Shown: positions 1-36,417 of the stretch, piece by piece
Position numbering within the stretch: position 1 is the stretch's first letter
Layout of the letters: each line of letters begins with the position of its first letter
Source of the DNA: Dehalococcoidia bacterium
Lineage (GTDB): Bacteria; Chloroflexota; Dehalococcoidia; Tepidiformales; Tepidiformaceae
NCBI GenBank assembly: GCA_036010925.1
Contig: DASCML010000069.1
Location: 1 to 36,417 of the forward strand
Length of the DNA: 36,417 nucleotides
Direction of reading: 5' to 3'
Notes under the pieces: model-generated
What the model was told of the DNA's origin: nothing
What the model saw: only the letters and a program-made list of their open reading frames with translations
Databases searched by the model: none
Position numbers and translations under genes: made by a program

Positions 1-101
1 AGACCGGTCATCGCAACCCCGTCCAGGCAGTGACATTGTAGGTGCGCGGCGAAGAACCGGTGAGGTGCCCTCTATCCGGCCTCGGGATTGCGAAGCAGCG
101 C

Positions 102-1781
102 TCAGGTGGGCGAGCCAGCCTCTTCGACTCCCACGACTATTGCCCCGGTCGGGCATGCTTTGAAGCAGCGCCCACAGTAGATGCAGGCATCCTGGTCGAT
201 TTCATAAACGGCGAAGTCGCGGACATCCTCAACTGGTCTCACAGAACCATCGTCGTCGAGGGCCACCCGATGGATGCACTCCTCCGGGCAGATGATTGCG
301 CAGGCCTGACAGGCCGTGCAGAGGTCGAAGACAACGCTTGGCGGCAGGCCGCAGTAGAGGCAACGGAGCCCGTCGGCCATTGCCTCCCGTTCGGCCATCG
401 TCAACTCGGCCTCCACGTCCAATCCGAGATCCGGCTCACCTTCTGCGTCAGCCAATGTCGCGCTCGACATCATGTTTTCGATGCTCTGGATCTCGAATCG
501 CTCGACTTCGGGCCACCCGCCGTCTGGCGCGTATCGATCGTGGAGATACCGGTGGATGGATTCGGCCGCCGCATGCCCCCCGGCGACGGCTTCGATGATG
601 GTTGATGCGCCGGTGACAAAGTCGCCGCCGGCGAACACGCCGTCTTCGGGAGTCATCGATGTGTCAGGGTCGGTGGTGCGAAGGTCGGCACCCACTTTGG
701 GGTCGAGGGACTCGGCGTCGGGTTGCTGCCCGAGCGCGAGAATGACCATGTCCGCGGTGAATACGAACTCTGTGCCTTCTATTGGGACGGGCCTTGCCCG
801 ACCAGAGGCGTCGGGCTCTCCCAACCGGTTACGGATACAGCGCACGCCGGCGACGCGGCCGTCCAAGCCCTCGACCATCTTCAGGGGGGAGACGAGGTAT
901 TCAATATTGACGCCTTCGCGGAGGGTGTCCTCCATCTCCTCGTCGTGGACTTCCGTTTCGGCGCGAGTGCGCCGGTAGAGCATGGTCACCTTTTCGGCGC
1001 CAAGCCTGATGGCGGTGCGGCAGGCGTCGACGGCCGTGTAGCCGCCGCCGATCACTGCCACCTCCTTTCCGCACTTCGGGCGCCCACCGAGATTGGATTC
1101 TTCGAGGAGGGGAAGGGACTGGATGACTCCGGGGAGGTCGACACCCGGTACATCGAGGTCGTTCCAGCGCATTGCCCCGGCACCGATAAAGACCGCCTGG
1201 TGGTCGCTCCTCAACTGTTCGAGGCTGACATCATGGCCAACCCTGATGCCGGTTCTGAGTTCGATTCCGAGATCAAGAATCGAGGCCAGATCGCGATTGA
1301 TCGCGTCATGTGAAAGCCGGAAGCGCGGGACCCCCAGGAGGGTCATTCCGCCGGGTTCGTTGGCAGCTTCATAGATCGTTACTGCGTGGCCCTTCATGGC
1401 CAGGTCGTGGGCGGCGGTCATCCCGGCCGGGCCGGCGCCAATCACCCCGACCGCTACACCCGTTGGCGGTGTGGGCGTCTTTTCGACGCCACGTGCTTCG
1501 TAACGGTCGGTAAGAAAGCGTTTTAGCTTCCGGATCCGGACCGGCTTGTCAAATTCTCGCCTCGTGCAGACGTCTTCGCAGGGCGCGCTGCAGGCTCGAC
1601 CACAAACGGCGGCAAACGGGTTAGGGTCGCGAGCCGCAGTGAACGCTTCGTTGAACCGTCCCCGGGCGGTGAGTGTCACGTAGCTCCGGACGTCGGTGTG
1701 CACCGGGCAGGCAGCCTGGCATGGGGCCGGGTACTGATGCCGCCAACGGTTGAATTCTTCGAAGGCGTCGAGCTTCGGCAT
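102..1781 (-). CDS. GltD-like FAD/NAD(P)H oxidoreductase fused to Fe-S domains (N-terminal Cys clusters plus C-terminal 2x[4Fe-4S] ferredoxin)
   Basis: 559-aa ORF. Two Rossmann motifs (VGVIGAGPAGMTAA, VAVIGGGYTAVD). N-terminal CQAACPVHTD and CGRACSAPCEDVC motifs as in the glutamate synthase small-subunit family. C-terminal CTACQACAIICP and CIYCGRCFKACP ferredoxin motifs. GAGGAG lies 4 nt upstream of the ATG at 1781. Confidence 0.85.
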   Translation of the reverse strand: MPKLDAFEEFNRWRHQYPAPCQAACPVHTDVRSYVTLTARGRFNEAFTAARDPNPFAAVCGRACSAPCEDVCTRREFDKPVRIRKLKRFLTDRYEARGVEKTPTPPTGVAVGVIGAGPAGMTAAHDLAMKGHAVTIYEAANEPGGMTLLGVPRFRLSHDAINRDLASILDLGIELRTGIRVGHDVSLEQLRSDHQAVFIGAGAMRWNDLDVPGVDLPGVIQSLPLLEESNLGGRPKCGKEVAVIGGGYTAVDACRTAIRLGAEKVTMLYRRTRAETEVHDEEMEDTLREGVNIEYLVSPLKMVEGLDGRVAGVRCIRNRLGEPDASGRARPVPIEGTEFVFTADMVILALGQQPDAESLDPKVGADLRTTDPDTSMTPEDGVFAGGDFVTGASTIIEAVAGGHAAAESIHRYLHDRYAPDGGWPEVERFEIQSIENMMSSATLADAEGEPDLGLDVEAELTMAEREAMADGLRCLYCGLPPSVVFDLCTACQACAIICPEECIHRVALDDDGSVRPVEDVRDFAVYEIDQDACIYCGRCFKACPTGAIVVGVEEAGSPT

Positions 1782-1867
1782 GCGGTTCTCCTCGGGGCCT
1801 ATCGGCGCCCGGTTGGCTCCTTGCGTAGGTCAGATTTGATTCGGGCGCCATAAATCCGACAGGGAGT

Positions 1868-2059
1868 CTACGGCCGATCGACCTTGCCGGCCATGATGCG
1901 TGCTCTGTAGAGTGCCGATTGGATTGCTTCGACCAGCTGGCGCGCGGCCCCCTTCGTCATCTCAACGGCGATGCGAGTACCCGGACCAGTCGATTCGTTT
2001 ACGAAGTCGATGTGGAGAGCGTGTTCCTGGTCGAGATGGAAAGGGTGATCTAAGGTCAC
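1868..2059 (-). CDS. hypothetical small protein (63 aa)
   Basis: ORF between two same-strand genes. The translation is unbiased and protein-like. GTG start without a convincing SD. No family recognised. Confidence 0.3.
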   Translation of the reverse strand: MTLDHPFHLDQEHALHIDFVNESTGPGTRIAVEMTKGAARQLVEAIQSALYRARIMAGKVDRP

Positions 2060-2174
2060 GTAGGTGTGGTCCAGCCGGAACTAGGTGTCTCCTCGGCCGG
2101 CGCAACCATCGACCCGGATTTTTTCTGCAATCATCGTGCACATGTGCGTTTCCGTTATTGCTTCGCGGAGCGAT

Positions 2175-3176: not shown

Positions 3177-4376
3177 ATGTCAACCCGGGCGAAGCCCCGG
3201 GTGATTGTCCCAGCAGATTCAACTCCGGTCTTGCTGCTCGCTCTCTTGGGGGCCGCAGCGGTTTTGGCAATCGGCTGCGGTGGTTCTTCAGATTTAACGC
3301 CGTCCGATTCTGATACACCAGGCAAGGTGGCATCCATTGTTTCGCCCACCGATTCGCCACCGTCGGGTCCTTCGCCGTCTCCTCCGCTAGCGGCAGATGG
3401 CATTACCGGTGCATCGGTTCCTCCACCGATGATCGAATCCGCGAAGTTCGATAGCTCGCGCGTGTCCGAGAGTGCGGGCAGCTTCCCGGCTCTGACCGAC
3501 CCTGAATTTGTGAGTGCCGGCACGGTAGATTGGATGAGTTTCGACGACCTCGTGCTGGGCGCGGTCCAAGGCGATGAATCGCGTGCCTATCCACTTTCGA
3601 TGATGACCTACCACCACGTGGTCAACGATACGCTGGGAGGTAGCCCTTACCTGGTTACCTTCTGAATAGTCTGCTCATCGGGGGTCGGTTTCGACCCTCA
3701 AGTCGGAGGCGAGCGCCTCCTCTTCCGGGCAGCGGGCCTCTACAACGGCGTCTTCGTCATGTGGGATGATGTTACTGGAACTTCCTGGTCGCACCTGGAC
3801 GGCGTGGCGCTCGACGGCGCTCTAGCGGGCGAACAGCTGCCAATCCTTCCGCTATGAACCGCGACCTGGGAAGAGTGGCTCAAGGATCACCCAGACACCA
3901 CCGTGATTTCGAATGACACGCCGTACAGCAACTCCTACCGGACCGTTAGCCTCGGCGCCCCCGGCCTGGGCACGCGGTTCGTGGACACGCTCGATGAAAT
4001 CGACGACCGACTCCCGATAAACACGCTCGTAATTGGAGTCCTTGCCGGGTCGGAAGCTATTGCATTTCCGCTCGATGCCGGGACGCAATCACCGATGCAG
4101 GCTGACGTGGGTGGGACCCCGGTCGTGGTTCTCGAAAGCGGCGATGGGACTCCGTCGCTCGCGTACCATCGCGCGCTCAGTGATGGCCGGATCCTCGATT
4201 TCGAACGGATAGACGGGGTGGTCTAAGACGCACAGACGGGCTCGACGTGGTCGGCCGATGGCCTCGCCCTGGAGGGTGAGCTTACCGGCGTTCAGCTGAC
4301 CTTCGTCACCTCGTTCCTGACGGAATGGTACGGATGGGCCGCATTCCACCCGGAGACTGAGATCTTCTTGGACTAG
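3177..4376 (+). pseudogene. DUF3179-family lipoprotein gene interrupted by three in-frame stop codons
   Basis: A single frame (phase 0) runs from ATG 3177 (or GTG 3165) to TAG 4374-4376. Signal peptide plus lipobox LAIGC. DUF3179-like blocks lie on both sides of every stop: ...RAYPLSMMTYHHVVNDTLGGSPYLVTF*IVCSSGVGFD..., ...LPILPL*TATWEEWLKDHPDTTV..., ...GVV*DAQTGSTWSADGLALEGELTGVQL...EWYGWAAFHPETEIF. Stops are TGA 3663-3665, TGA 3855-3857 and TAA 4224-4226. No frameshift is needed. Confidence 0.75.
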
Positions 4377-4380
4377 GTAA

Positions 4381-7445: not shown

Positions 7446-7448
7446 AGA

Positions 7449-8933: not shown

Positions 8934-9224
8934 GTGTACGATCAGAACGTGGAAGTCCGGTTCTACGCCACCCTGCGTCCCATCGTCGGAGGCAAATTCA
9001 TCGATGTCGACATCGAAGGCGAAGCCTCCGTGCGCCGGTTGCTTGACGCACTAACGGACCGCTTCCCGGAACTCGGTCCCCTCGTTTGGTCGGGGGAAGG
9101 AGAGCTGAGGGACTTCCTTAAGCTGTTCGTGAACGGCAGAGATGTGCGACACCTCCAGATGCTCGATACTCCGGTGCCGGCCGATGCCATTGTCGATGTC
9201 TTCCCACCGGTGGCGGGTGGCTGA
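8934..9224 (+). CDS. MoaD/ThiS-family ubiquitin-like sulfur-carrier protein (C-terminal Gly-Gly)
   Basis: 96 aa ending ...VFPPVAGG-stop. VRFYATLR... beta-grasp N-terminus. Start uncertain (GTG 8934 or GTG 8949). Confidence 0.8.
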   Translation: MYDQNVEVRFYATLRPIVGGKFIDVDIEGEASVRRLLDALTDRFPELGPLVWSGEGELRDFLKLFVNGRDVRHLQMLDTPVPADAIVDVFPPVAGG

Positions 9225-9474
9225 CGGAGTGGTGCGACTGGAGGTCCGGAATCTTCCGCGCGACCTGATCAGCGGCTACCTCGTGGATGAGTTCGGAGGA
9301 ACCCGTCAGGGGGACACAGTCGTCGGGGACGGCTGGACCGTGACATTCCGGGAGGCTACCACAGCGTGGGTGGGCGGCATGCAGGTGCCGGCCCTCTTCA
9401 TCGACGTCGAAGGTCCACGAGAGACCGATGCCGCCCGCTTTCTCCGCCTAAAGACGATGCGTGGAGGCGGCTAA
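9217..9474 (+). CDS. hypothetical small protein ending in Gly-Gly-Gly
   Basis: ORF in phase +1. A GTG at 9217 overlaps the moaD-like stop (GTGGCTGA). The translation is protein-like and ends ...LKTMRGGG. No family recognised. Confidence 0.45.
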   Translation: MADGVVRLEVRNLPRDLISGYLVDEFGGTRQGDTVVGDGWTVTFREATTAWVGGMQVPALFIDVEGPRETDAARFLRLKTMRGGG

Positions 9475-9492
9475 GCGGCATCGACGCGCAGG

Positions 9493-11307
9493 TTACGCGA
9501 TGGCCAGTTCCTTGAGTTTTGCCTCGGTGACGACGCCTTTCTCCCACCCCCGGGCGGCGTAGTATTCCTCGAGCATCTCTGTGAGTTCACAAACTTGGCC
9601 TTCGGAACCCCGGGAGTTCGATGGTTCATCGAGGAAGCGCTGGGGCAGAGTGTCTGAGCCTTCCCCGAATCCAGCCAGGTTGTTGTAGTGGCGCTCGAGG
9701 TTGTAGATTCGCTCGCCGGTCTTGAGCACATCGTCGGCCGTGAACGAATCCAGTCCCGTCATCACCCGGTATTGCTCCGCATACTCATCCGGGCCCTCGG
9801 CGAATGCGCTGAACTTGCAGAGGTCGAGGCTGTCCGAGAAGGCGTGGATATCCTGCAATAGCTTGAGCAACTCGCCTTTCCCCTCCCAGACGAGAGGGTC
9901 ACTCTTCAGTCCGATCAAGCCGAGTTCACTGGCGGGACTGTATCCGCGCAGATGGCAGGCACCACGGTTCGACGTTGCGTAACCGAGGCCCATGCCCTTG
10001 AGTCCTCGCGGATCGTAGGCAGGAGTGGCCTGGCCTTTCACGGTCATAGCCATCTCCGGGTGGCCGACGAAGTTGGCGAACGCTTCGATCCCGTCGGCAA
10101 GCTGATCGCCGATTCCCTCGCGGAAGGTGACCATTCGGGAAACTTCGATCATCCGACCCTGGTCGCCCCAGGCGATGCCCTCACCTGTAGGAATGTATTC
10201 GCGCTGCGTAGCTTCCATGACCGCCGAGAGAGCCTGGCCAATCTCAATGGCGTCATATCCCCAGTCGTTGGCCAGGTTGATCATGTACGCCACGGATGCA
10301 ACGTCGCTGTTCCCACAGTTGGCGCCGAGCGACCAGGCGGGCTCGTACTCGACCGACTCCATCTTGACCTTGTACGGGCCCTCGGTGATGTCGACCTCTT
10401 TCTTGCAGGCGACGGGACAGGCGTGGCACGTGGGGTCGTTAATCAGGTAGTGCTCTTTCACGTACTCGCCGCTCAGCATCTCCGCCTCTTCGAATGAGGT
10501 GTCCTGGCTGTTTCTGCCGCCGAGTGCACCAATCGAATTGGTCACGTTCATGAGAACGTTGGTACCGAAAACGCTTAGTCCACCTTTCTTCGGAGAGGTG
10601 ATGTGTTCTTCGTCCATGATCTTTTCGAGTGCGACCTTGTGCGCGACTCTCCATTCGTCTCGGTTCGTGGCCCTCGGCCTTGTGTTTGTCGATTTCACGA
10701 CGACGGCTTTGAGCATCTTGTCGCCGCCGACGCAACCGGTGCCGCCGCGTCCGGAGGCGCGGTCGGTTTCGTTGATCCAGGCTGCGAATCGGACCTTGTT
10801 CTCGCCGGCCTGGCCGATCGACATGACACTCAGGTCGTCTTCTCCGTAGCGTTCGCACATGATCTGCACAGTCTCGTGAACGCCCTTCCCCCAGATGTCC
10901 GTGGCGTCGCGTAGCTCGACGCTGTTGTCGCTCACGTACGCGTAGACGGGTGAGGTTGCCTTTCCTCTGAAGACGAGGCCATCGAAGCCGGCCCAGCGCA
11001 AACGGGCTGCGCTCCATCCCCCCATGTGACTGTCCGTAACGGTCCCGGTGAGCGGACTCTTGGTTACGATTGCCAGCCGGCCGCTCATGTTGGCCTCGGT
11101 GCCCGTGAGGGGCCCGTTCATGAAGCAAAGAATGTTGTCCGGACCGAGTGCGTTGACAGATGGGCCCGCCTCGTATACGTAACGCACGCCGAGGCCGCGG
11201 GCGCCGATGTATTTCAGCGCCCAATCTTCGGGGATGGGCTCATAGCTCACGCTTCCGACGGCCAGATCGACGGTTGCAACTCTTCCTGAATACCCACCAA
11301 GTGGCAT
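9493..11307 (-). CDS. aor: aldehyde:ferredoxin oxidoreductase (tungstopterin AOR family)
   Basis: 604 aa from ATG 11307 (GAGGAG SD). The 86-codon N-terminal extension of the tracked ORF is Arg/Pro-rich and non-homologous. AOR N-terminal block GRVATVDL...YIGARGLG, the [4Fe-4S] motif CHACPVACKK, and GLGYATSNRGACHLRG. Confidence 0.92.
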   Translation of the reverse strand: MPLGGYSGRVATVDLAVGSVSYEPIPEDWALKYIGARGLGVRYVYEAGPSVNALGPDNILCFMNGPLTGTEANMSGRLAIVTKSPLTGTVTDSHMGGWSAARLRWAGFDGLVFRGKATSPVYAYVSDNSVELRDATDIWGKGVHETVQIMCERYGEDDLSVMSIGQAGENKVRFAAWINETDRASGRGGTGCVGGDKMLKAVVVKSTNTRPRATNRDEWRVAHKVALEKIMDEEHITSPKKGGLSVFGTNVLMNVTNSIGALGGRNSQDTSFEEAEMLSGEYVKEHYLINDPTCHACPVACKKEVDITEGPYKVKMESVEYEPAWSLGANCGNSDVASVAYMINLANDWGYDAIEIGQALSAVMEATQREYIPTGEGIAWGDQGRMIEVSRMVTFREGIGDQLADGIEAFANFVGHPEMAMTVKGQATPAYDPRGLKGMGLGYATSNRGACHLRGYSPASELGLIGLKSDPLVWEGKGELLKLLQDIHAFSDSLDLCKFSAFAEGPDEYAEQYRVMTGLDSFTADDVLKTGERIYNLERHYNNLAGFGEGSDTLPQRFLDEPSNSRGSEGQVCELTEMLEEYYAARGWEKGVVTEAKLKELAIA

Positions 11308-11474: not shown

Positions 11475-12267
11475 ATGTCATCCGGTGCCCCGGATTATGG
11501 ACTGATCGACCGGGTTGGGTTGGGGCGTTCCGTGTTCTTTCCCAGGCCCGATGCAACCCAACCACCTGACGGAGCTACCGACTTCGAGATCCCGGTTGGC
11601 AACGGGATCACTGTCGCGGCGAGGATGTATAAGACCGATCCCGGCGCCCCAACTTTTATGCACTTTCACGGGAATGGGGAGGTGGTCGCCGACCACGATG
11701 GGATTGCTCTGATGTACCGAGAGATGGGACTTAATCTCGTCGTGGTTGACTTTCGCGGCTACGGCGTGGGCCGTGGCGTTCCCACGTTCGCAGCATTGGT
11801 GGGGGACGCACGACCAGCTGCAGCCGAATTCCACGCCAGGCTTGATGCCGCTCGAATCGTGGGCCCGCGGATTGTCATGGGTCGAAGCCTCGGTGCGCAT
11901 CCTGCGCTCGAAATTGCGGCGCGCTGCTCGGAACGATTCTGCGGCCTTGTGATCGAAAGTGGAGCGGCGAGCCTCAGACGTCTCGTGGCGGTGCCGGACG
12001 TCGGCGAACAAGCCCACACGCTGGTGACAACTCACGAGGAAAAAATCCGAGGAATTCGGCTTCCAACGTTGCTGCTGCACGGGGAGTATGACGAAATTGG
12101 TGCCGCTTGAAACTGCGGTGGAGCTGTACGGGCTTCTGGGCAGCGCTGAGAAGGATCTAAAGGTGATGTCCGGTGCCGGCCACAATGATATCTTCTGGAC
12201 CGATTCTGATGCCTATCTCCAGGCTCTGGCCGACTTCGCGGGAGGATTGGCGCCCGCGGGAAATTAG
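11475..12267 (+). pseudogene. alpha/beta hydrolase with a single-base (+1) frameshift before the catalytic His
   Basis: Phase 0 carries the nucleophile elbow GRSLG and ...LLLHGEYDEI, then stops at 12108-12110. Phase +1 from 12100 continues seamlessly as VPLETAVELYGLLGSAEKDLKVMSGAGHNDIFW...APAGN to TAG 12265-12267. The junction is att-g-gtg at about 12099. Confidence 0.7.
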
Positions 12268-12646
12268 TGAGGACAGCCGCGGGCTGTTGTTGACACGGCA
12301 TTCGTAGGCTGGATGCCGGCCCTGGTCGAGAATTCTCATCCCCGCAAGGGGCCGGTTCCGCTCGGATCCCACGTCTGCCATCTGGTCTCTTCTTCTGGCT
12401 TCACCGCCGCTGACTACAGGTCCAAGTCTTCTTGGCGGTGCGCATTGGGCAAAGTGCCTCCCGCGCGTTCCTGATCTTATTCGTCTGGTTCGGGCCACGT
12501 ACTACAACAACATCGCGTGTTCACTGCTGGGACTCAAACCTCCATGGGCCCTCTTAGCGGGCGAGGCATGGACCTTTGACACTCGGCTCGAGGTTTTAGA
12601 TTCACGGACCTCTGGAGCGGCCGAAGAGCAGGCCGGGCTGGTTTCT

Positions 12647-12675
12647 TTGACATGCTCCTGTACTCAAATTATCGT
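12647..12675 (+). promoter_or_regulatory. candidate promoter TTGACA-17 nt-TATCGT
   Basis: Consensus -35 hexamer at 12647-12652, a 17-nt spacer and a TAnnnT -10 at 12670-12675. Lies about 80 nt upstream of the nitroreductase ATG. Confidence 0.5.
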
Positions 12676-12711
12676 GGCGCTCGATCCGGAATTTTATCGC
12701 GTACAAGAATC

Positions 12712-12737
12712 GATTCGACCGGCTCGCCGGTCGAATC
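12712..12737 (+). promoter_or_regulatory. perfect 11-bp inverted repeat (GATTCGACCGG-CTCG-CCGGTCGAATC) in the nitroreductase 5' leader
   Basis: Read directly. It overlaps a second 10-nt palindrome GAATCGATTC (12707-12716). It ends 5 nt before the AGGAG SD at 12743-12747. Confidence 0.4.
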
Positions 12738-12752
12738 CGAGTAGGAGCGGGA

Positions 12753-14146: not shown

Positions 14147-15812
14147 ATGGAGATGACCGGCGGCCAGGCTCTGGCCCAGTCCTTGAAGATCGAAGGCGCC
14201 GATACCCTCTTTGCTCTCCCAGGCATCCAGATGGACTACCTGTTTGACGCGATCTGGGAGGAGCAGGACCACTCACAAGGTGATTCATCCTAGGCACGAG
14301 CAGGCGACGACCTACATGGCCGACGGCTACGCCCGAGTGACGGGGCGCATAGGGACGGCGATCACAGTCCCCGGCCCCGGCCTTCTGAATGCTACGGCTG
14401 CCTTATCCACCGCCTACGCCTGTAATTCGCCTGTGTTGATGGTCACCGGTCAGGTTGTCTCCGACCAGATCGGGCAAGGGCGAGGCGCGCTGCACGAGAT
14501 CAACGATCAGCTCGAGACAGTTTCATCCGTTGTGAAGTACGCGGAGCGCGCAATGAGGCCAACGGAAATCCCCGGCATGGTCAGGCGCGCTGCCAAGGCT
14601 CTCCAGACCGGACGCCCAAGGCCAGCAGAGATCGAAGTTCCACCGGATGTCCTTGCCGGAGTGACCGATGTCACCCTTCTCGAGCCAGAGACCTGGTTCC
14701 GATCTGACCTGCACCAGGCCGACCCCGACCTCGTCGAGCAGGCCGCTGAAATGCTGGGCAAGGCCGAACGCCCTCTCATTTGCGCGGGTGGTGGAGCTCT
14801 TTCGGCTGAGGCCTGGGCTGAGGTCGGGGAGCTGGCCGTGATGCTCGAAGCGCCCGTGCTCATGTCGAGCAACTGTAGGGGCGTCGTGTCGGACCGCGAC
14901 TATCATGCGCATACCGGCCGAGTTGCGACGCTGGCGCTGGTCCCGGAGGCCGACGTCATCCTCGTGATCGGCAGCCGCTTTCTGCTTGCTTCCAGTGCCT
15001 CCTTCGCGGGCGCGACGAAAGTGGAGGCGATGGTCGTTCAAATCGACATCGACCCGGATGAGCTGGGTCGCAACCGCGAGCCTGACGTGGGTCTCCGGGG
15101 AGACGCAAAGAGCGCGACCGCGGCACTTCTCGAGCGGATTCCGGCCCACAATCGCTCGCATCCTTCGCGCCATGACGAGTTGGGGGCGATACGCGACCGC
15201 TCTCGCGAAGGTTCTGCTGGCGCCCTGCTGGTATCGGACTTGGGAACCGTCATACGCGAAGAGCTGCCCGACGACGGAACACTGGTGACGGAAAGTACAC
15301 AGGTCGGTTACTGGGCTCAAAACGGCGGCTTCGAGGTATACGAACCGCGTACAATGATCACGTCGGGCTATCAGGGTACCCTCGGGTACGGTTACGCAAC
15401 TGCGCTGGGAGCCCAGGTTGGTCGGCCGGATCGCAAAGTGGTCTCGATCAACGGTGATGGCGGGTTCATGTACAGCGTCCAGTAGTTGTCGACCCAGGTT
15501 CAGTAGGACAACCCCCTGGTGACGGTCGTCTTCAACGTCATGGCCTACGGCAACGTTCGCCGTATCCAGGCTCTTCGTTACAACGGTCACACCATCGCCT
15601 CTCGGCTGCACAACCCGGACTTTCTGAAACTTGCTGACTCGTTTGGGATGGCCGGGACAAGAGCCGAGACTCCCGATGACTTTCGGCATGCGCTGCGGCA
15701 CGCGCTTGCCAGCAATTCGCCCACCTTGATCGAAGTGCCGATGCCGTCAACCGAAGAACTGGAGGGGGCGTTTAGGATGCATCCGGCGCCTCCTAGGCCG
15801 GTCCTGCAATAG
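14147..15812 (+). pseudogene. thiamine-diphosphate enzyme (acetolactate-synthase-like) with one frameshift and two in-frame TAG codons
   Basis: The N-terminus MEMTGGQALAQSLKIEGADTLFALPGIQMDYLFDAIWEEQDH is in phase 2. The conserved continuation KVIHPRHEQATTYMADGYAR... is in phase 0, with the junction at about 14270-14280. The ThDP motif reads GDGGFMYSVQ*LSTQVQ*DNPLVTVVFNVMAYGNV, with TAG at 15483-15485 and 15504-15506. The frame then continues to TAG 15810-15812. Confidence 0.8.
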
Positions 15813-17289: not shown

Positions 17290-17721
17290 CCGAAGAGCGA
17301 GGGCCTTGCCCGACCCGCATGCGGAGCACCCTATGAGTTCGGGACGGAGGTTGATCTGGGGGGGCTCCCGTTGAACTAGAACCTTGACGATTGGCCTTAT
17401 TTCACACCAGAGCGAAACTCCGGCATCGCGGAGCTCAGTTTCCCGAACGCGGGGTATGACATCTGGTCAGCCGAGTTTGACCACCTGTACCAGAAGGTGG
17501 GCACCGGCATCTTTGCCTTCACGGTGCACCCGTAGTGCATCGGCAAAGGCGGCCGGATGCTCATTCCTGAACGGCTGATAAACCACGTCAAGAGCCACGA
17601 AGGCGTGCGATTTACCACGATGTCCCAAGTCGCTGCAGAGTTTCGCGAGACTCGGACGGTTGCTGATGAGACCGAAAAGGAGACGGCGTTGCCCACGTCG
17701 CACTTGTGGCTTTCACGGTAG
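17290..17721 (+). pseudogene. 5'-truncated polysaccharide-deacetylase-family remnant with two in-frame TAG codons
   Basis: Phase 1 reads ...APYEFGTEVDLGGLPLN*NLDDWPYF...YDIWSAEFDHLYQKVGTGIFAFTVHP*CIGKGGRMLIPERLINHVKSHEGVRFTTMSQVAAEF.... TAG codons lie at 17377-17379 and 17533-17535. There is no start codon and no N-terminal catalytic domain, because the frame runs into the end of the MFS gene. Confidence 0.6.
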
Positions 17722-19382: not shown

Positions 19383-19800
19383 ATGGCCACTCTCGAAGAG
19401 CACTTGGCCAACTTGGCTGAGGCCTTCGACAGTGCCTATATGGACGAGCTGCGGCTCCCGTCCGGAAGCTGGGAGACCAATCCGGCTGCGTCTGGCGATG
19501 GTGAAGAAACCTAGAGCGGCCCGGCAGGTCGCCGAGCACATGGCGACCGCCTCGGCCGGCTCCGTAGCCGGGATCGCGTTCTTCATCGGGGTCCCCGGAC
19601 CGGTCCGCGAGGAGTCCGAGTTTCCGTCGGTTGACGAGGCCCTGGGCGCCACGCAGGTCGCGTACGCGAAGTTCATGGTGGTCGTGAGAGCCATCCCAGA
19701 GGACAAGCTGAAAATGGAGGTCGAAGCGCCCAGGTTCGGCAAGAACACAATCTCAGGGTTCCTCGGGATGGCCGCTCAGCACCTGCACCAGCACTCGTAA
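19383..19800 (+). pseudogene. DinB-like four-helix-bundle protein, probable +1 frameshift
   Basis: Phase 0 reads MATLEEHLANLAEAFDSAYMDELRLPSGSWETNPAAS... and stops at 19512-19514. Phase +1 carries ...KKPRAARQVAEHMATAS...ISGFLGMAAQHLHQHS. The His in the early helix and the terminal HxxH are consistent with the DinB metal triad. The junction is somewhere in 19470-19500. Alternatively, a shorter intact ORF starts at ATG 19498. Confidence 0.45.
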
Positions 19801-22977: not shown

Positions 22978-23309
22978 CTAGGCCATTCCCCGTTTCTTCA
23001 TTTCGCACTGGAGTCGAGCAGCGCTCGACTCCAACAGAGGCGTCCGCTCATCTTCAGTGAGCGTTCCCTCGGTATCTTTCGCTATCTTGGCGCTGTCGAA
23101 CAGGATCCACTTCTCTGGTACGACCTTGGCAATGACTCGCAATGGCAAGGTCGGGCGGCGTACGAAGTCGACCGCGGCTGCCGGATCGGTCGGGTTCAAC
23201 TTGGCCGAGACCTCCGGGTAGAATCAGCTCTTGGTCTCGCGGCCCTCGTGGGCTATTGCTCTGGTCCTTGGCGGTCGCCGTCGCCCAAAGGAGCCTGTGA
23301 GGACACCTG
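22978..23309 (-). pseudogene. possible 5'-truncated PPOX/F420-type flavin-binding remnant with an in-frame TGA
   Basis: The 73-aa TTG ORF (22978..23199) reads ...PTLPLRVIAKVVPEKWILFD, resembling the C-terminal strand of PPOX-class proteins. The same frame upstream reads AIAHEGRETKS*FYPEVSAKL, with TGA at 23221-23223. It has no start codon and abuts the modC stop. Confidence 0.35.
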
Positions 23310-24395: not shown

Positions 24396-25066
24396 CTTCG
24401 ACCTCCAACTTGGAGCAGCAAGGCCATGGCGAGCAGGATCGCAAGGCCAATCAGGGCCGAAAAAAGCGCAAGAGTATTAGCCAGGTCTTGGTTGCCCGCC
24501 TGGACAGCGTCGAAGATGGCAGCGGGTACTGTTTGGGTCTCGCCGGGGATACTTGCAGCGACGATGACCGTCGCGCCGAACTCGCCAAGGCTCCGGGCGA
24601 AAGCAATGAGGACGGCGGCAGCGAGCCCGGGCCAGGCAAGCGGCAGGGCCACGCGGAGGAAGAGTCGGAGAGGCGAAGCCATGGTCTCGCCCACCGCGAG
24701 GATCTCGGGCTCTATCTGCTCGAAACCCGCCTGGGCTGTGCGGACGTAAAGGGGGAGCGAAACGATAGCGGCGCTGATCGCCGCTCCCTGCCAGGTGAAC
24801 ACCAGTCTTAGCCCGAGGTCATCGATGAGGAACTGACCGAACGAGCTCTGGCGCCCGAGTCCGTACAGCACGTAGTAGCCGATCGCGGTCGGAGGCAACA
24901 CGAGAGGTAACAGGGCAACCGAAGATAGTAGAGCCGATATGCGGCGATCGCTTCGGGTGATGAGCCAGGCAAGGGGCGTCCCGGCGAGGATGCAGAGTGT
25001 CGTAGCAGTGAGGGCGACGTAGGCCGAGATTCGGAATGTCGACCAGTCAACGTCTCCGAAGTTCAT
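24392..25066 (-). CDS. modB: molybdate ABC transporter permease
   Basis: 224-aa membrane protein. FARSLGEFGATV (EAA-loop-like) motif. 4-nt overlaps with both neighbouring genes. Confidence 0.88.
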   Translation of the reverse strand: MNFGDVDWSTFRISAYVALTATTLCILAGTPLAWLITRSDRRISALLSSVALLPLVLPPTAIGYYVLYGLGRQSSFGQFLIDDLGLRLVFTWQGAAISAAIVSLPLYVRTAQAGFEQIEPEILAVGETMASPLRLFLRVALPLAWPGLAAAVLIAFARSLGEFGATVIVAASIPGETQTVPAAIFDAVQAGNQDLANTLALFSALIGLAILLAMALLLQVGGRR

Positions 25067-25917
25067 CGCCTCGCGACCTCAAATCCAAAATCGCTTAAGA
25101 ACGTTTGCCCTTCCGGATCGAGCAGGTACTGGAGGATGCAGCGGCCCGTGAGCTCCGCACCGGTGCCTTTGATGACCGCGCCGGTCTGGAGAATGGGCTC
25201 GTGAAGCGTGGATTCGATGACCTGGAACGGTCGCCCGGTATTCACGACGAGGGCCAGTGCAACCAGCGCTGCGTCGGCGTTTCCCGTCTCCGCGTAGTCG
25301 ACTGCCTGGCGGGCGTTATCCCCGAGCACAAGCCGATCCTCGACGGCATCGAGGACTCCAACCTTCGAGAGGGCTTCGCTGGCGGCGCGGCCGTAAGGCG
25401 CGTGAGAGGGGTTTGCAATCGCGATGGTGCCGAATGAGGCGTCACTGAGCGATCCAAGAGCGGCAGGTGGGTCGACCCCGTTTCGCCAGATCAGTGCCAG
25501 CCGCCCGATTCCATAGGCTCCAGCGCCATCAGGCACGACGAATCCTTTTTGAAAAACCTCCTCGGTAAAGGCGATATCGGCTGAGAGAAAGAGGCCGAAT
25601 CTTGCACCCGCAAGGACCTGCATCCGCAACCTTCCAGACGATCCGAAAACGAATGTAATGTCGGATTCGCACGCGTCCTCTAGGGCGGGTTGGAGGCGCT
25701 CCAGTGCGTCCCGAATGTTCGCGGCTGCGGCGACTGAAATACTTGACGATGCTTTCTCGCCCACCACCACGACATCGTCTACGGAGTCGCCTGGGAATCG
25801 AAGTGGTACTGGCTCGGTCGTGGTCGTGGTCGTTTCGTTCGCCGAGCAGCCTGCGAGCACGACCAGCAAAGCGATGGTAGTGGCGAGTGTGGCCATTCTG
25901 TTACAGATTCGCAGCAT
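25063..25917 (-). CDS. modA: molybdate-binding periplasmic lipoprotein
   Basis: Lipobox LAGCS. FGSSGRLRMQVLAG...LFLSAD block typical of ModA. ATG 25917 overlaps the padR stop by 1 nt (TGATG). Confidence 0.82.
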   Translation of the reverse strand: MLRICNRMATLATTIALLVVLAGCSANETTTTTTEPVPLRFPGDSVDDVVVVGEKASSSISVAAAANIRDALERLQPALEDACESDITFVFGSSGRLRMQVLAGARFGLFLSADIAFTEEVFQKGFVVPDGAGAYGIGRLALIWRNGVDPPAALGSLSDASFGTIAIANPSHAPYGRAASEALSKVGVLDAVEDRLVLGDNARQAVDYAETGNADAALVALALVVNTGRPFQVIESTLHEPILQTGAVIKGTGAELTGRCILQYLLDPEGQTFLSDFGFEVARR

Positions 25918-26444
25918 CAGCGATTCCCGAGTGTGAGCCGGTAGGAATTGAGCCATCCCAGCGTGGCTTCGGCGGCCGATCGCTTCGAATCATCGACGAG
26001 TCGGGAGAATTCGGTGCCGGCTTCACGACGATTGAGGCCGGTCAGGTACGTTTCGCACACCTGGAGTTGGCCATCCACGAGGCGTTCGAGCGCGGGCTGG
26101 TCGGTTCGCTCGAGGAAGAACAGCTTGAGGAGGAACTCGAGCCGAATCTCTCGCATTCGTTCAACTGGCTCGCGAAGCCAGGCCTGCAGTAGCTCCCACC
26201 CTGCCGGGTCGAGTTCGAAGATCTTGCGCGGCGGGCGGAGGCCGACGCGCTCCTCCTTCCACCCGACCAGGTCCCGGGTCTCCAGATTCCGCAGATACGT
26301 GTAAAGAGTGCTGTGCTCGACCGGGCAGACATCGATGAGCGACTCGGATTCGAAGAAGTTGAGCATCTCGTATCCGTGCATTGGCCTGAGGGCTAGAACT
26401 CCGAGAATGGCGAACTCACCGGGGAGGAGGGCCCGCTCGCTCAT
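25917..26444 (-). CDS. PadR-family transcriptional regulator
   Basis: Winged-helix block ILGVLALRPMHGYEM...STLYTYLRNLETRDLV. First gene of the padR-modABC same-strand cluster. Confidence 0.85.
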   Translation of the reverse strand: MSERALLPGEFAILGVLALRPMHGYEMLNFFESESLIDVCPVEHSTLYTYLRNLETRDLVGWKEERVGLRPPRKIFELDPAGWELLQAWLREPVERMREIRLEFLLKLFFLERTDQPALERLVDGQLQVCETYLTGLNRREAGTEFSRLVDDSKRSAAEATLGWLNSYRLTLGNR

Positions 26445-27777: not shown

Positions 27778-27863
27778 ACTAAATCCGGACCTTCCGATGG
27801 CGTGTGGGAGGCCCGAATTTACGATCCGGTCACAGTTTCGAACTAGATCCGTGGTATCCTAGG

Positions 27864-27982
27864 CACGCGTCGAATCCCGTCCAACGGGAACGGGGGAACC
27901 AAAATTTGGGGCTAACGAGCGGCTCGTCTGCTCGCGGCGACTTCCGACGCCGAGCCCGTCAGCTAACCTCGTAGACGCTAAT
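27864..27982 (+). promoter_or_regulatory. c-di-AMP riboswitch (ydaO-yuaA class)
   Basis: Class-typical blocks occur in order: GCGUCGAAUCC, hairpin CCCGU-CCA-ACGGG, ACGGGGGAACCA, GGGGCUAAC, internal GC hairpins, then CCGAGCCCGUCAGCUAACCUCGUAGACGC. The P1 helix GCGUC (27867-27871) / GACGC (27974-27978) closes the element. An extended -10-like TGGTATCCT lies at 27852-27860, just upstream. Confidence 0.8.
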
Positions 27983-27984
27983 CG

Positions 27985-28033
27985 GGAGACGGTTTCGTCT
28001 CCTCCACCGAGTCTCTTCGGAGATTGCCGGAGG
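27985..28033 (+). promoter_or_regulatory. putative expression platform: two mutually exclusive hairpins, the second sequestering a GGAGG
   Basis: Hairpin A is GGAGACG-GUUU-CGUCUCC (27985-28002). Hairpin B pairs CCUCC (28001-28005) with GGAGG (28029-28033) and encloses AGUCUC-UUCG-GAGAUU (28010-28025). A and B share C28001-C28002. Confidence 0.4.
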
Positions 28034-28290: not shown

Positions 28291-28701
28291 ATGACAGTCA
28301 TATTCGACACTGACCCTACCGGGCTGGATGCCCAAATCACGTCCCATGACCCCCTCGAGGAGGTCGTAGGCGCGCTCCGCGCTGCCAGGGAAGTCCCGTT
28401 CGAAGCGGAGAGACCTGCCCTCTGGCATAAGCGCTTTACCGCTCGCGTTACTGACGCGCTTGTTGCGATGCGCGGCCACGCTACCAACGCAAGGACGGCC
28501 GCAGGCTCTCTACGTTCCGAATGTTCGACCCTTGTGACAAAGATCGACGGACTTCTCGCTTCAGCTCTCAGCGCTCAGCCGAGACAGGTCCAAGTACCCC
28601 AGATGGTGGAACTATCCGAACAGGCGGTGGCCCTTGAGCTGGCCGGCCGCGACCACGCGCGAGTGGCTGCTCTGTGCGAAGAGGGCGCCCCCGGCGGTTG
28701 A
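28291..28701 (+). CDS. hypothetical protein (136 aa)
   Basis: ATG 28291 lies 5 nt after GGAGGA (28280-28285). The third codon position is GC-rich. The part of ORF 28096..28701 upstream of this ATG is Arg-rich and unconvincing. No family recognised. Confidence 0.5.
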   Translation: MTVIFDTDPTGLDAQITSHDPLEEVVGALRAAREVPFEAERPALWHKRFTARVTDALVAMRGHATNARTAAGSLRSECSTLVTKIDGLLASALSAQPRQVQVPQMVELSEQAVALELAGRDHARVAALCEEGAPGG

Positions 28702-28784: not shown

Positions 28785-30128
28785 ATGACAGAGCACAAGT
28801 ATCACGCCTATGGCGCGCACAATATCAGCAACGTTCCGCAGTTCGCGAATCTTCCAGAGGAGGACAGGTTCGCGATCGATGTGGTGTCGCGGGTGCTCCC
28901 ATTCAAGATCAATAACTACGTTGCCGACGAGCTTATCAATTGGGACAATGTACCTAACGATCCCGTCTACACTCTCACGGTGCCTCAGCGCGGAATGCTC
29001 GCGCACCATCACTTCGAGGCCGTCGCTCGGCTGGTTCGGGACGGCGCTCCGAAGGATCAGATTGATTCAGCTGTGGCCGAAATCCGAGCGACCTTGAATC
29101 CGCACCCGGCCGGCCAGCTCGAGCACAACGTGCCAGAGCTCTATGGCGAGCGCCTCGAAGGTATGCAGCACAAGTACCGCGAGACCGTCCTCTTCTTCCC
29201 AGCCAGTGGACAGACCTGTCATGCCTACTGCACATTCTGCTTCCGATGGCCACAGTTCGTTGGCGACAAGGGCCTCAAATTCGCCTCAGCCGAGGCCTCT
29301 GCGCTCGTCGACTACCTCCGCTATCATCCCGAGGTAACAAATGTCCTCTTCACCGGGGGGGACCCGATGGTGATGAGCGCTGCGCGTTTGGAGTCCTATA
29401 TCCGGCCGATTCTGGAGGCCAGGCTCCCGAACATCGTCAGCATTCGCATCGGCACGAAATCCCTCAGCTACTGGCCCTACCGGTACCTTACCGACAAGGA
29501 TTCGGAGGACGTGCTCAGCCTCTTCCGTGAAATAACCGGCAATGGTTTGCATCTCGCCATCATGGCGCACTTCAACCATCCCCAGGAACTGCAGACATCC
29601 GCAGTCGCCGAGGCCATCGGCAAGATTCGCGACACCGGGGCCGAGATCCGGACGCAGTCGCCGTTGATGGCCAATATCAACGACAGGGCCGAGGACTGGT
29701 CTGCTATGTGGCGAAAGCAGGTCAATCTCGGCTGCATCCCCTACTATATGTTCATTGCGCGTGACACCGGTGCACAGCAGTTCTTCAGGGTGCCCCTTGT
29801 CCGGGCGCAGGAGATCTACCGCGAGGCATACGCACACGTAAGCGGACTCGCGAGGACCGTTCGCGGACCTAGTATGTCCGCCGATCCCGGAAAGGTCCGG
29901 GTCATCGGACCTGTCGAGCTTCCGGGTCGCAAAGTGATGGCGCTGAACTTCCTTCAGGCCCGGGACCCCGACTGGGTGCAGCGAATTTTCCTGGCCGAAT
30001 GGGATGAGAACGCTGCCTGGCTCGATGAGCTGAGGCCAGCCTTCGGAGAGACGCGATTCTTCTTCGAAGACGAACTCGCCGCTATGCACGGCAACGCTCT
30101 CCAGGAGCTCGTGTTCAGCGCACGCTAA
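28785..30128 (+). CDS. KamA-family radical-SAM aminomutase (lysine/glutamate 2,3-aminomutase-like)
   Basis: 447 aa. Radical-SAM CHAYCTFC (CxxxCxxC) motif followed by FRWPQF, and the FTGGDPMVM motif characteristic of the KamA family. AGGAGGA SD 4 nt upstream. Confidence 0.88.
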   Translation: MTEHKYHAYGAHNISNVPQFANLPEEDRFAIDVVSRVLPFKINNYVADELINWDNVPNDPVYTLTVPQRGMLAHHHFEAVARLVRDGAPKDQIDSAVAEIRATLNPHPAGQLEHNVPELYGERLEGMQHKYRETVLFFPASGQTCHAYCTFCFRWPQFVGDKGLKFASAEASALVDYLRYHPEVTNVLFTGGDPMVMSAARLESYIRPILEARLPNIVSIRIGTKSLSYWPYRYLTDKDSEDVLSLFREITGNGLHLAIMAHFNHPQELQTSAVAEAIGKIRDTGAEIRTQSPLMANINDRAEDWSAMWRKQVNLGCIPYYMFIARDTGAQQFFRVPLVRAQEIYREAYAHVSGLARTVRGPSMSADPGKVRVIGPVELPGRKVMALNFLQARDPDWVQRIFLAEWDENAAWLDELRPAFGETRFFFEDELAAMHGNALQELVFSAR

Positions 30129-32146: not shown

Positions 32147-32643
32147 CAAATCGGCCCAGATTCTAGGGAACAATCTAGATCAATTCTGCATCAATCGGTC
32201 GAGCACCTGGCTTCTTTCCGGATGATGCTGGGATTGATCGTGCTTCGGCCTGCTGGCGTAAATGAGACTTCGCGGCCTGGGGCGTCGCAGTTGGCCCAGC
32301 TGACTACCCGGACGTGGCGGTTGGGGTGACCGGACGCGTGGCCGGCGGCCACGCCGACCGGGGAGTCTTGCTGTGTGGGAGCGGGGTTGGAGTGAGTGTT
32401 GCAACAAACAAAGTGGCCGCAATCCGCCATGACACGTTTTCGGCAAGGCAGGGAGTCGAGGATGATGCTATGAATGTCCCGTGTCTTGGTGCGCGAGTTA
32501 TTGGCCCGGAGCTGGCTGTTGAGGTCGTCGGCGCCTTCGCGTCTGCCGAATTCCTAGCAGCTGAGCGAAACGCATGGAGACCGGCCAAGGTTATTGCGCT
32601 TGAATCAGCGGGAGCACCTCAAATTACGGGAGGTACCGAATGA
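32147..32643 (+). pseudogene. rpiB: degraded ribose-5-phosphate isomerase B gene
   Basis: The 3' two-thirds is an open frame, ADYPDVAVGV...ADRGVLLCGSGVGVSVATNKV...LGARVIGPELA..., but catalytic-region residues diverge: EDDAMNV where the family has HN-x-x-NV, and ERNAWRP where it has ERH-x-RR. About 4 residues are also missing after ...AAIR. The 5' third is split between phases 2 and 1 (...QIGPDS..ILHQSVEHLASF / DDAGID...). There is an in-frame TGA at 32263-32265 and no usable start codon. Confidence 0.6.
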
Positions 32644-35296: not shown

Positions 35297-35323
35297 CCCA
35301 CACTCAAATCACCGGAGGCCGAG

Positions 35324-36208
35324 ATGACTGAGACGATGACGATTGGAATGGTCGGGCTGGGGAGAATGGGGGCCGGAATGGCTAAGCGTCTCCGCGATGC
35401 CGGCCACGATGTAATCGGTTACGACCGAAATCCAAATGTATCGGATGTGGAGTCGCTCGAAGAGATGGTGGAGCAGCTCCCGTCTCCGCGGATCGTTTGG
35501 ATGATGGTTCCGTCAGGCGAGATCACCGAGACTGCTATTCGCGATGTCGCCAATCTCCTCGAGCCCGGAGACATCCTTGTCGATGGCGGCAACAGCTACG
35601 TGAAGGACACCGTCCGGAGGGCGACCGAGCTGTCCGAGCGTGAACTGCGCTTTCTCGACGTCGGCACATCCGGGGGTGTTTCAGGGCTCGAGAACGGGTT
35701 CTGCCTGATGGCGGGTGGGGACCCCGAGGTCTTCGCTGCAGTTGAGCCCGTCCTCGCCGCGCTCGCCCCGGCGGACGGTTATGCCCGCGTAGGCGGACCC
35801 GGCGCTGGACACTTCACAAAGATGGTCCATAACGGGGTCGAGTACGGCATGTTGCAGGCCTATGCTGAAGGGTTCGATCTTCTCCATGCCGCCGCCGAAT
35901 ACGATTTCGACCTTCACCAGATCGCAGCCCTCTGGAACCAAAGCAGCGTCGTTCGTTCCTGGTTACTGGAGCTTGCCGAGAACGCGTTCGAAAAGGACTC
36001 GGAGCTCGAAGGGCTCAAGGCCTACGTGGATGATTCAGGCGAGGGACGTTGGACTGTACTCGAAGCCGTAGAGCGGGGAGTCAACGTGGGGGTGCTTTCG
36101 CAATCGTTGTTCGCGCGGTTCAGTTCGCGTGAAGACAATGCCTTCTCGATGCGCGTGATCGCGGCGCTGCGAAATGAGTTCGGCGGCCACGCGGTGAAGA
36201 GCACATGA
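35324..36208 (+). CDS. gnd: 6-phosphogluconate dehydrogenase, decarboxylating (short ~300-aa form)
   Basis: MVGLGRMGAGMAKRL Rossmann motif, VDGGNS, GTSGG and HFTKMVHNGVEYG blocks. GGAGG SD. Confidence 0.85.
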   Translation: MTETMTIGMVGLGRMGAGMAKRLRDAGHDVIGYDRNPNVSDVESLEEMVEQLPSPRIVWMMVPSGEITETAIRDVANLLEPGDILVDGGNSYVKDTVRRATELSERELRFLDVGTSGGVSGLENGFCLMAGGDPEVFAAVEPVLAALAPADGYARVGGPGAGHFTKMVHNGVEYGMLQAYAEGFDLLHAAAEYDFDLHQIAALWNQSSVVRSWLLELAENAFEKDSELEGLKAYVDDSGEGRWTVLEAVERGVNVGVLSQSLFARFSSREDNAFSMRVIAALRNEFGGHAVKST

Positions 36209-36272
36209 CTCCGGACCGTCCGGACGAGGTCCGAACCCCGCCGGCAGATCTAGGATTCGTCTCGGATCGCCG

Positions 36273-36417
36273 CTAGAAGTCCATGTCGTCCATACCGGGC
36301 ATACCCCCGCCCATACCGGGCATACCCCCGCCCATACCGGGCATACCCCCGCCCATGCCCGGCATACCTCCCATGTCATCCATGCCACCTAGGTCACCAA
36401 AACCGCCCATGTCGAAG
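36273..36417 (-). CDS. groEL: chaperonin GroEL, C-terminal end (partial, continues beyond the window)
   Basis: The minus-strand frame reads FDMGGFGDLGGMDDMGGMPGMGGGMPGMGGGMPGMGGGMPGMDDMDF-stop (TAG = 36273-36275). This is the characteristic Gly-Met-rich GroEL tail. The tracked ORF 36035..36388 is a different frame. Confidence 0.75.
   Translation of the reverse strand, partial: FDMGGFGDLGGMDDMGGMPGMGGGMPGMGGGMPGMGGGMPGMDDMDF
36291..36353. repeat. 3 perfect tandem copies of a 21-nt unit (CATACCGGGCATACCCCCGCC), plus a degenerate fourth
   Basis: Read directly. Encodes (GGGMPGM)n within the GroEL tail. Confidence 0.9.

What the first reader, a model, noticed from the sequence alone, without database searches (positions are those of the whole stretch)
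1..36417. Window-wide excess of freshly inactivated genes among intact neighbours
Five clear cases are the DUF3179 gene, the alpha/beta hydrolase, the ThDP enzyme, the deacetylase remnant and rpiB. Three weaker ones are the DinB-like gene, the PPOX-like remnant and the 13.4-14.1 kb patch. Together they cover roughly one sixth of the window. The lesions are in-frame nonsense codons (TGA, TAA and TAG all occur) and single-base phase shifts, and the three well-defined shifts are all one extra base. About 30 other genes have clean frames, SD sites and coupled overlaps. All three stop codons also end intact genes here, so codon reassignment does not explain the pattern. The remaining options are genuine ongoing genome reduction (for example a host-associated or niche-restricted lineage), a hypermutator history, or consensus or indel errors in the assembly. 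Nonsense substitutions are not a typical indel-type sequencing error.
Basis: partly seen in the sequence, partly recalled or inferred. Interest (0 to 1): 0.7.

Follow-up and report, generated by a model that had tools for sequence, protein, structure and literature searches.

The report
Real, fixed pseudogenes in marine bacterium
About one locus in six on this contig from an uncultured marine Chloroflexota-like bacterium is a genuinely broken gene, and nearly every break recurs in over a dozen independent metagenome assemblies, so this is gene decay in a nearly clonal ocean population and not sequencing error.

Summary

Twelve DNA sequencing runs and about a dozen further assemblies are 99.97-100% identical to the window. 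They carry every lesion, with no indel at any lesion site. Assembly error is therefore excluded, with one exception: the two TAG stops at 15483 and 15504. These belong to 11 substitutions found only in this contig.

- The TGA at 3663 is not a lesion. It is the selenocysteine codon of a known UxxC selenoprotein family, and relatives keep it. The gene is still dead (TGA 3855, TAA 4224).
- The PPOX-like remnant and the 13.4-14.1 kb patch have no support.
- Part of the 27.8-28.8 kb gap is a c-di-AMP riboswitch.

Codon reassignment, programmed frameshifting and a current hypermutator are not supported. The best reading is ongoing gene decay in a cosmopolitan, almost clonal Dehalococcoidia-like lineage. 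Whether the excess is genome-wide is untested, because only 46 kb was visible. This is a known kind of phenomenon in an unusual setting.

The parts
1868..2143 (-). DUF6295 pseudogene with one in-frame TAG at 2081-2083, at the position of a conserved Trp
   Evidence: Pfam PF19812 scores 89.6 bits across the stop and 102.4 bits with W there. Sequence read. Identical in L092-L098 and X1.
3177..4376 (+). DUF3179 lipoprotein selenoprotein gene, now a pseudogene. Sec codon TGA 3663-3665 (UxxC). True nonsense codons TGA 3855-3857 and TAA 4224-4226. Normal stop TAG 4374.
   Evidence: Pfam covers 3-292/292 in one frame. Stop positions. Homolog alignment and relatives' DNA.
3678..3709 (+). Conserved hairpin just downstream of the Sec TGA; candidate SECIS element
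   Evidence: RNAalifold on the window, L084, L085 and L087 gives a stem with one compensatory pair. The stem also encodes conserved residues, so the evidence is partial. No Rfam hit.
11475..12267 (+). Alpha/beta hydrolase pseudogene with a +1 frameshift (extra A in the run 12094-12096)
   Evidence: Hydrolase_4 profile 8-129 lies in one frame and the C-terminal catalytic part in the +1 frame. The mended protein matches the C-terminal ends of alpha/beta-hydrolase NCBIfam models (bioH 182-244/245). X1, X4, X9 and X13 contigs span the site with no gaps.
14147..15812 (+). ThDP enzyme pseudogene (PRK08266-like) with a +1 frameshift (extra base near 14274). In this contig only, five clustered substitutions at 15475-15538 include TAG 15483 and TAG 15504.
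   Evidence: The population alleles appear in every run that covers the cluster (7 runs) and in L001.
17329..17721 (+). Remnant of a polysaccharide/peptidoglycan deacetylase: C-terminal third only, with in-frame TAG 17377 and TAG 17533
   Evidence: PDB 3qbu at E 7.5e-13, chain residues 213-320 of 326. Stop positions. In hydrothermal-vent strains the first stop is TAA (17379 G>A).
19383..19800 (+). DinB-like gene, probably +1 frameshifted (extra A in 19507-19509, then in-frame TAG 19512)
   Evidence: Pfam DinB_2 coverage and score improve after mending. Moderate support.
32179..32643 (+). rpiB pseudogene: 5' part destroyed, TGA 32263 in frame, 4-aa internal deletion. The 3' end still overlaps the tal start.
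   Evidence: Pfam covers profile 37-135/138 only. Residues 37-151 are 65% identical to the intact rpiB of L100.
27858..27993 (+). c-di-AMP riboswitch. Not a lesion; it accounts for part of a large non-coding gap.
   Evidence: Rfam RF00379, 76.4 bits, E 3.2e-16, full model.

Best explanation
These are genuine pseudogenes. All had become fixed before the sampled strains of one almost clonal, widely distributed marine bacterium diverged. The bacterium is Chloroflexota, Dehalococcoidia-like, and is found in seawater, oxygen-deficient-zone and hydrothermal-vent metagenomes.

Each gene was knocked out by an ordinary spontaneous mutation. Two look like TGG to TAG and one is TAC to TAA. Three are single-base insertions, two of them lengthening a short A run. 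Two genes were truncated by deletion. The broken copies have not yet been removed.

The lesions span a range of ages:
- four genes carry a single lesion;
- one carries two;
- two are truncated remnants;
- several 0.3-0.7 kb gaps have no recognisable content.

This range points to a continuing process and not to one event.

Shown: the lesions, their reproducibility, the intact state in relatives, and the very low population diversity. Inferred: that the cause is weak purifying selection in a lineage with a small effective population or a recently narrowed niche, and that the rest of the genome looks the same.
For: Reproducibility:
- Logan contigs of 12 DNA runs show no indel at any lesion site and carry every lesion except the two contig-only TAGs.
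- ENA, NCBI and JGI assemblies L001-L003 and L088-L099 are 99.87-100% identical.

Intact state elsewhere:
- Relatives have uninterrupted DUF3179 apart from the Sec codon, an intact rpiB and 554-aa ThDP enzymes.
- Their loci show normal gene density.

Freshness:
- The mended ThDP scores 665.7 bits, full length.
- The pseudogenes keep the codon-position GC pattern of intact genes.

Neutral drift inside a remnant: TAG becomes TAA at 17379 in vent strains.

An additional relic (a Molybdop_Fe4S4 fragment, 27.2 bits) lies in the 10 kb beyond the left end.

Taxonomy: the best named relatives are Dehalococcoidia and Tepidiformaceae, and identity to the closest non-clonal homologs of the four proteins searched is 65-77%.
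Against: - Only 46 kb of the genome could be examined. The 10 kb left flank holds 11 intact genes and one relic, which is a lower density than in the window.
- No IS elements and no drop in GC were seen. Both often accompany reductive evolution.
- No host or restricted niche is known.
- The run index finds only near-identical DNA, so the apparent clonality could partly reflect how the runs were found. However, reads laid at 90-92% likeness also showed no sister population.
Confidence: 0.72

Rival explanations
1. The pseudogenes are genuine but local. This stretch is a dispensable accessory region where several redundant paralogs happen to be decaying, while the rest of the genome has normal pseudogene density.
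For: The affected genes are accessory: a hydrolase, a ThDP paralog family with thousands of Dehalococcoidia homologs, DinB, and DUF proteins. The adjacent 10 kb has 11 intact genes and only one small relic.
Against: The lesions are spread over the whole 36 kb, between conserved genes such as trkAH, AOR and tal-pgi-gnd. rpiB sits inside a core pentose-phosphate operon. No mobile-element or island signature is present, and GC is flat at 58-64%.
Confidence: 0.22
2. Assembly or consensus errors in the MAG created the lesions.
For: Eleven substitutions are unique to this contig. Nine of them fall in three tight clusters, and they include the two TAGs in the ThDP-binding motif. No listed run carries them.
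Against: All other lesions, including every frameshift, are reproduced by independent assemblies made with different assemblers from different samples.
Confidence: 0.03
3. The interrupted genes are still expressed through recoding: stop-codon readthrough or reassignment, and programmed +1 frameshifting.
For: One in-frame TGA (3663) really is recoded, as selenocysteine. All three shifts go in the same +1 direction.
Against: - The other stops align with Gln, Tyr, Trp and Asp/Glu, which fits no single reassignment.
- All three stop codons terminate intact genes.
- Homologs carry no shift at the corresponding positions.
- No slippery motif or long homopolymer is present.
- Two loci are truncated remnants.
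Confidence: 0.03
4. A past or present mutator phenotype (a mismatch-repair or 8-oxoG-repair defect) produced the burst of lesions.
For: There are many lesions in a short stretch. One nonsense change is C to A, and several single-sample differences in low-depth contigs are G:C to T:A.
Against: Strains from different studies and years (runs dated 2017-2025) differ by 0-5 bases per 10-20 kb, which does not fit a current mutator. The lesion types are mixed. The G:C to T:A singletons sit in 3-5x contigs and may be library damage.
Confidence: 0.08

Closest known systems
Pseudogene-rich genomes of recently bottlenecked or niche-restricted bacteria (Mycobacterium leprae, Yersinia pestis, Shigella, Sodalis glossinidius; from general knowledge)
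   Same: Many recent pseudogenes with one or a few lesions, interspersed with intact genes. Reduced coding density. Extremely low population diversity.
   Different: The organism is an uncultured marine Chloroflexota-like bacterium found in the water column, with no known host. No IS expansion and no GC decline appear in the 46 kb seen. The genome-wide fraction is unknown.
DUF3179 (PF11376) selenoprotein family, UxxC/T motif (PMC9312934; PMC13188914)
   Same: The in-frame TGA sits at the first Cys of the CxxC motif. Orthologs in relatives keep the same TGA, and a conserved hairpin follows it.
   Different: In this lineage the gene carries two further nonsense codons and cannot yield a full-length product. 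Whether the Sec machinery is present in the genome is unknown.
Near-clonal cosmopolitan marine microbes such as UCYN-A, and the low coding density of Trichodesmium (from memory, not tested here)
   Same: Near-identical genomes across distant samples. In Trichodesmium, a large non-coding or pseudogene fraction in a free-living marine organism.
   Different: These belong to a different phylum and have a different lifestyle. The resemblance is a lead only.

Membership tests
Genuine pseudogene (not an artefact) | The lesion is reproduced in independent sequence data | tested here: met
   Twelve runs plus about a dozen assemblies carry every lesion except TAG 15483 and TAG 15504.
   DUF3179, ThDP, rpiB, DUF6295 and DinB, hydrolase.
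Bacterial selenoprotein gene (DUF3179, UxxC) | In-frame TGA aligned with Cys in Cys-containing homologs and conserved in orthologs | tested here: met
   TF-U-IVC aligns with TY-C-VVC. L084 and L087 keep the TGA.
Bacterial selenoprotein gene (DUF3179, UxxC) | SECIS hairpin shortly downstream of the TGA | tested here: inconclusive
   A conserved stem-loop with one compensatory pair is present. It overlaps conserved codons, and no Rfam SECIS model matched.
Bacterial selenoprotein gene (DUF3179, UxxC) | selA, selB, selC and selD present in the genome | not testable with these tools
   Only this contig and 10 kb of flank were accessible.
Reductive genome evolution after a bottleneck or niche restriction | High pseudogene fraction across the whole genome | not testable with these tools
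   Seven of 37 loci in the window, and one relic among 12 loci in the left flank. The rest of the genome could not be seen.
Reductive genome evolution after a bottleneck or niche restriction | Very low within-species diversity | tested here: met
   0-5 differences per 10-20 kb among samples from at least seven studies.
Reductive genome evolution after a bottleneck or niche restriction | IS-element proliferation | tested here: not met
   No transposase appeared among the Pfam hits for any ORF or gap in the window or flank.
Stop-codon reassignment | The codon no longer terminates conserved genes, and in-frame occurrences align with one amino acid | tested here: not met
   TGA, TAG and TAA end 17, 8 and 5 intact genes. 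In-frame stops align with Gln, Tyr, Trp and Asp/Glu.
Programmed ribosomal frameshift | The shift site is conserved in homologs and has a slippery or stimulatory motif | tested here: not met
   Homologs of ThDP are unshifted. For the hydrolase and DinB-like genes the mended reading matches single-frame family profiles. No slippery motif at any of the three sites.

The most novel reading that the evidence does not exclude
A cosmopolitan, almost clonal planktonic Dehalococcoidia-like lineage with no sampled close relatives is in an early stage of genome decay. More than 10% of its loci are pseudogenes genome-wide, following a recent bottleneck or a shift to a restricted lifestyle (host-, particle- or oxygen-deficient-zone-bound). 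This would be a free-ocean counterpart of recently host-restricted pathogens and symbionts. The decay includes loss of a selenoprotein.
Probability: 0.3. Interest if true: 0.7.

Novelty: new member of a known kind. Interest (0 to 1): 0.5.

Why it matters
In-frame stops and frameshifts in MAGs are usually dismissed as assembly noise. Here the same lesions recur in many independent datasets. They are therefore biology, and they can be used as evidence about the organism.

If the density holds across the genome, this lineage would be a rare example of active gene decay together with extreme clonality in an open-ocean bacterium. It would be a natural system for studying how effective population size, dispersal and niche restriction shape marine genomes.

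The case also shows two annotation pitfalls. A selenocysteine codon was counted as a lesion, and contig-private nonsense codons were counted as real.

Tried and rejected
It returned only Chloroflexota loci at 71% identity or less, sharing just the AOR-MoaD pair. The source genome and close relatives were not recovered.
- Cluster look-ups gave no names, and every non-identical member turned out to be the same clone.
- The loci of relatives (L084, L087, L100-L103) are not syntenic with the window, so ancestral codons could be inferred only for DUF3179, ThDP and rpiB.
- PPOX-like remnant: six-frame Pfam and PDB searches of 12100-12760 and a Pfam search of the 73-aa ORF at 22978-23199 found nothing.
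- 13.4-14.1 kb patch: no Pfam hit, flat GC across codon positions, and no similarity to the genes that flank ThDP in relatives.
- Metatranscriptome contigs (X21, X22) cover only a few hundred bases and none of the lesion sites.
- No donor sequence for the 15475-15538 cluster exists elsewhere in the window. No indexed run holds that variant.
- A prfB-like +1 shift at TCC TAG G (14290) was considered for ThDP. It was rejected because homologs align with the +1 frame from about 14275 onward.
Full report
**What the window is.** It is a complete 36,417-bp contig with 58-64% GC and no tRNA genes. The same DNA occurs in marine, seawater and hydrothermal-vent metagenomes. Named relatives of its transaldolase, ThDP enzyme and aldehyde:ferredoxin oxidoreductase are Chloroflexota, mostly Dehalococcoidia and Tepidiformaceae. 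The closest non-clonal homologs of the four proteins searched are only 65-77% identical. The lineage therefore has no closely related sampled neighbour.

**Gene map.** Thirty ORFs are clean, and most match their families over the full length. They include the following:
- a GltD-like oxidoreductase, a dienelactone hydrolase, an SDR, an MBL-fold protein and a glyoxalase;
- TrkA and TrkH;
- ThiS/MoaD-like proteins next to a tungsten-type AOR;
- a nitroreductase, an MFS transporter and two APH-like kinases;
- a metallophosphoesterase, an Rv3169-family protein and an LLM oxidoreductase;
- a PadR regulator with a molybdate/tungstate-type ABC transporter;
- a KamA-family radical SAM enzyme, an aldo-keto reductase and a ROK kinase;
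- tal, pgi and a gnd-like gene.

TGA, TAG and TAA terminate 17, 8 and 5 of these genes, so no stop codon is reassigned.

**Disrupted loci.** There are seven.

1. *DUF6295 (1868-2143, minus strand).* It has one TAG at 2081-2083. The Pfam score rises from 89.6 to 102.4 bits when that position is read as Trp.

2. *DUF3179 (3177-4376).* It keeps one frame and covers the whole Pfam profile, but contains TGA 3663, TGA 3855 and TAA 4224.
   - The first TGA aligns with the first Cys of CxxC in full-length homologs.
   - The closest homologs were all called as ~220-240-aa proteins covering only the part downstream of that TGA; four of them (P0001, P0005, P0008, P0015) begin within two residues of it.
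   - In two relatives the DNA reads ...LVTF-TGA-I(A/V)CSSG..., followed by a conserved hairpin.
   - DUF3179 is a catalogued UxxC/T selenoprotein family (PMC9312934 and PMC13188914).
   - So 3663 is a Sec codon. The other two stops replace Gln (CAA/CAG) and Tyr (TAC) of the relatives and are true nonsense mutations.

3. *Alpha/beta hydrolase (11475-12267).* The reading ...LLLHGEYDE runs into a stop. The +1 frame continues with LVPLETAVELY...GAGHND. One extra A in GACGAAATTG explains this.

4. *ThDP enzyme (14147-15812).* The first 40 profile positions are in one frame and the rest are in the +1 frame.
   - Eight homologs of ~554 aa (554-555 aa) show exactly one residue (Phe or Tyr) at the junction, which implies one extra base near 14274.
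   - With that base removed and the population bases at the contig-only sites, the protein scores 665.7 bits, full length, against NF006122.

5. *Deacetylase remnant (17329-17721).* Only the C-terminal third survives. It matches PDB 3qbu residues 213-320 at E 7.5e-13 and carries two TAGs.

6. *DinB-like gene (19383-19800).* Removing one A from 19507-19509 extends the Pfam match to the full profile and lifts it above the gathering score. Support is moderate.

7. *rpiB (about 32179-32643).* A relative has an intact 160-aa rpiB overlapping tal.
   - Here residues 37-151 are 65% identical to it, the same as the 64.5% for tal.
   - The 5' part is unrecognisable, TGA 32263 is in frame, and four residues are deleted.

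Together these seven loci cover 14.4% of the window. Intact coding sequence covers only 73%.

**Are the lesions real?** Yes.
- Logan contigs from 12 DNA runs were laid on the window. No insertion or deletion appeared at any lesion site. One low-depth contig shows an extra A at 12580, in unassigned sequence.
- Independent ENA, NCBI and JGI assemblies are 99.87-100% identical over stretches of up to 17 kb.
- Every frameshift, and every stop except two, is present in all of them.
- Two hydrothermal-vent runs share 3472 G>A and 17379 G>A. The second changes the remnant's TAG to TAA, as expected for neutral drift in a dead gene.

**What is private to this contig?** Eleven substitutions are absent from every run that covers them: 12724-12725, 15475, 15483, 15504, 15511, 15538, 28646, 30183, 32289 and 32298. 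No indexed run holds the variant words.
- The five in ThDP all change residues that are invariant in eight homologs, and they create both C-terminal TAGs.
- The pair at 12724-12725 is an exact flip of the 2-nt loop of a perfect 10-bp hairpin.
- I cannot tell whether these are mutations of a private strain or consensus errors. The two TAGs should not be counted as established lesions.

**Items not supported.**
- Nothing supports a PPOX-like remnant.
- Nothing supports coding remains in the 13.4-14.1 kb patch.
- Part of the 27.8-28.8 kb gap is a c-di-AMP riboswitch at 27858-27993, scoring 76.4 bits.

**Explanation.** Recoding beyond the single Sec codon fails for three reasons.
- The in-frame stops align with four different amino acids.
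- Relatives of the ThDP enzyme carry no shift, and the mended hydrolase and DinB readings match single-frame family profiles.
- No slippery motif is present.

A current mutator does not fit a population whose members differ by a handful of bases per 20 kb. What remains is ordinary mutational inactivation that became fixed before the sampled strains diverged. The mixture of ages points to a continuing process. Relatives show normal gene density. The 10 kb beyond the left end holds 11 intact genes and one small molybdopterin-oxidoreductase relic.

I infer weak purifying selection in a lineage with a small effective population or a recently narrowed niche. That step, and any genome-wide claim, remain untested. 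No IS elements and no GC decline were seen.

**Verdict.** It is a new instance of a known phenomenon in an unusual ecological setting, and of moderate interest.

Noticed in passing
window 27858-27993 (+): A full-length c-di-AMP (ydaO-type) riboswitch at 76.4 bits. It lies upstream of a 136-aa ORF (28291-28701) and a KamA-family aminomutase (28785-30128). This may be osmolyte-related regulation.
   Followed up: partly
window 12714-12735: A perfect 10-bp inverted repeat, TTCGACCGGC..GCCGGTCGAA. Its 2-nt loop reads TC in this contig and GA (the reverse complement) in all other datasets. This is a hairpin-loop flip of the template-switch type, or an assembly artefact.
   Followed up: partly
window 15475-15538: Five contig-private substitutions within 64 bp. 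All are nonsynonymous and all hit invariant residues of the ThDP-binding motif. Two create TAG. No donor sequence exists in the window, and no run carries them.
   Followed up: yes
whole window and L092-L099: Population diversity is extremely low: 99.97-100% identity across samples from at least seven studies, runs dated 2017-2025. A small vent-associated subclade is marked by 3472 G>A and 17379 G>A.
   Followed up: partly
window 8934-11307 and 23310-26444: A tungsten-type aldehyde:ferredoxin oxidoreductase with two MoaD/ThiS-like genes. The AOR plus the ThiS/MoaD-like gene (8934-9224) is shared with 61 of the 80 Chloroflexota loci. A PadR-regulated molybdate/tungstate-type ABC transporter lies nearby.
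   Followed up: partly
L092 15700-16270 (left flank, outside the window): A 52-residue Molybdop_Fe4S4 fragment (27.2 bits) on the reverse strand between an MFS gene and a Dabb/PASTA gene. It is probably another gene relic.
   Followed up: partly
window 36290-36310: One NCBI metagenome assembly (L091) lacks 21 bp here, an in-frame indel inside the Zn-ribbon gene at the right end of the window.
   Followed up: no
window 2584, 8662, 1115, 30013, 35938, 29136: Most differences seen in a single sample, in low-depth contigs, are G:C to T:A. This could be oxidative library damage and not real polymorphism.
   Followed up: no
window 32289 and 32298: Both contig-private substitutions in the rpiB remnant are synonymous in the old rpiB frame. 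The remnant's 3' end still overlaps the tal start codon (ATGA).
   Followed up: no
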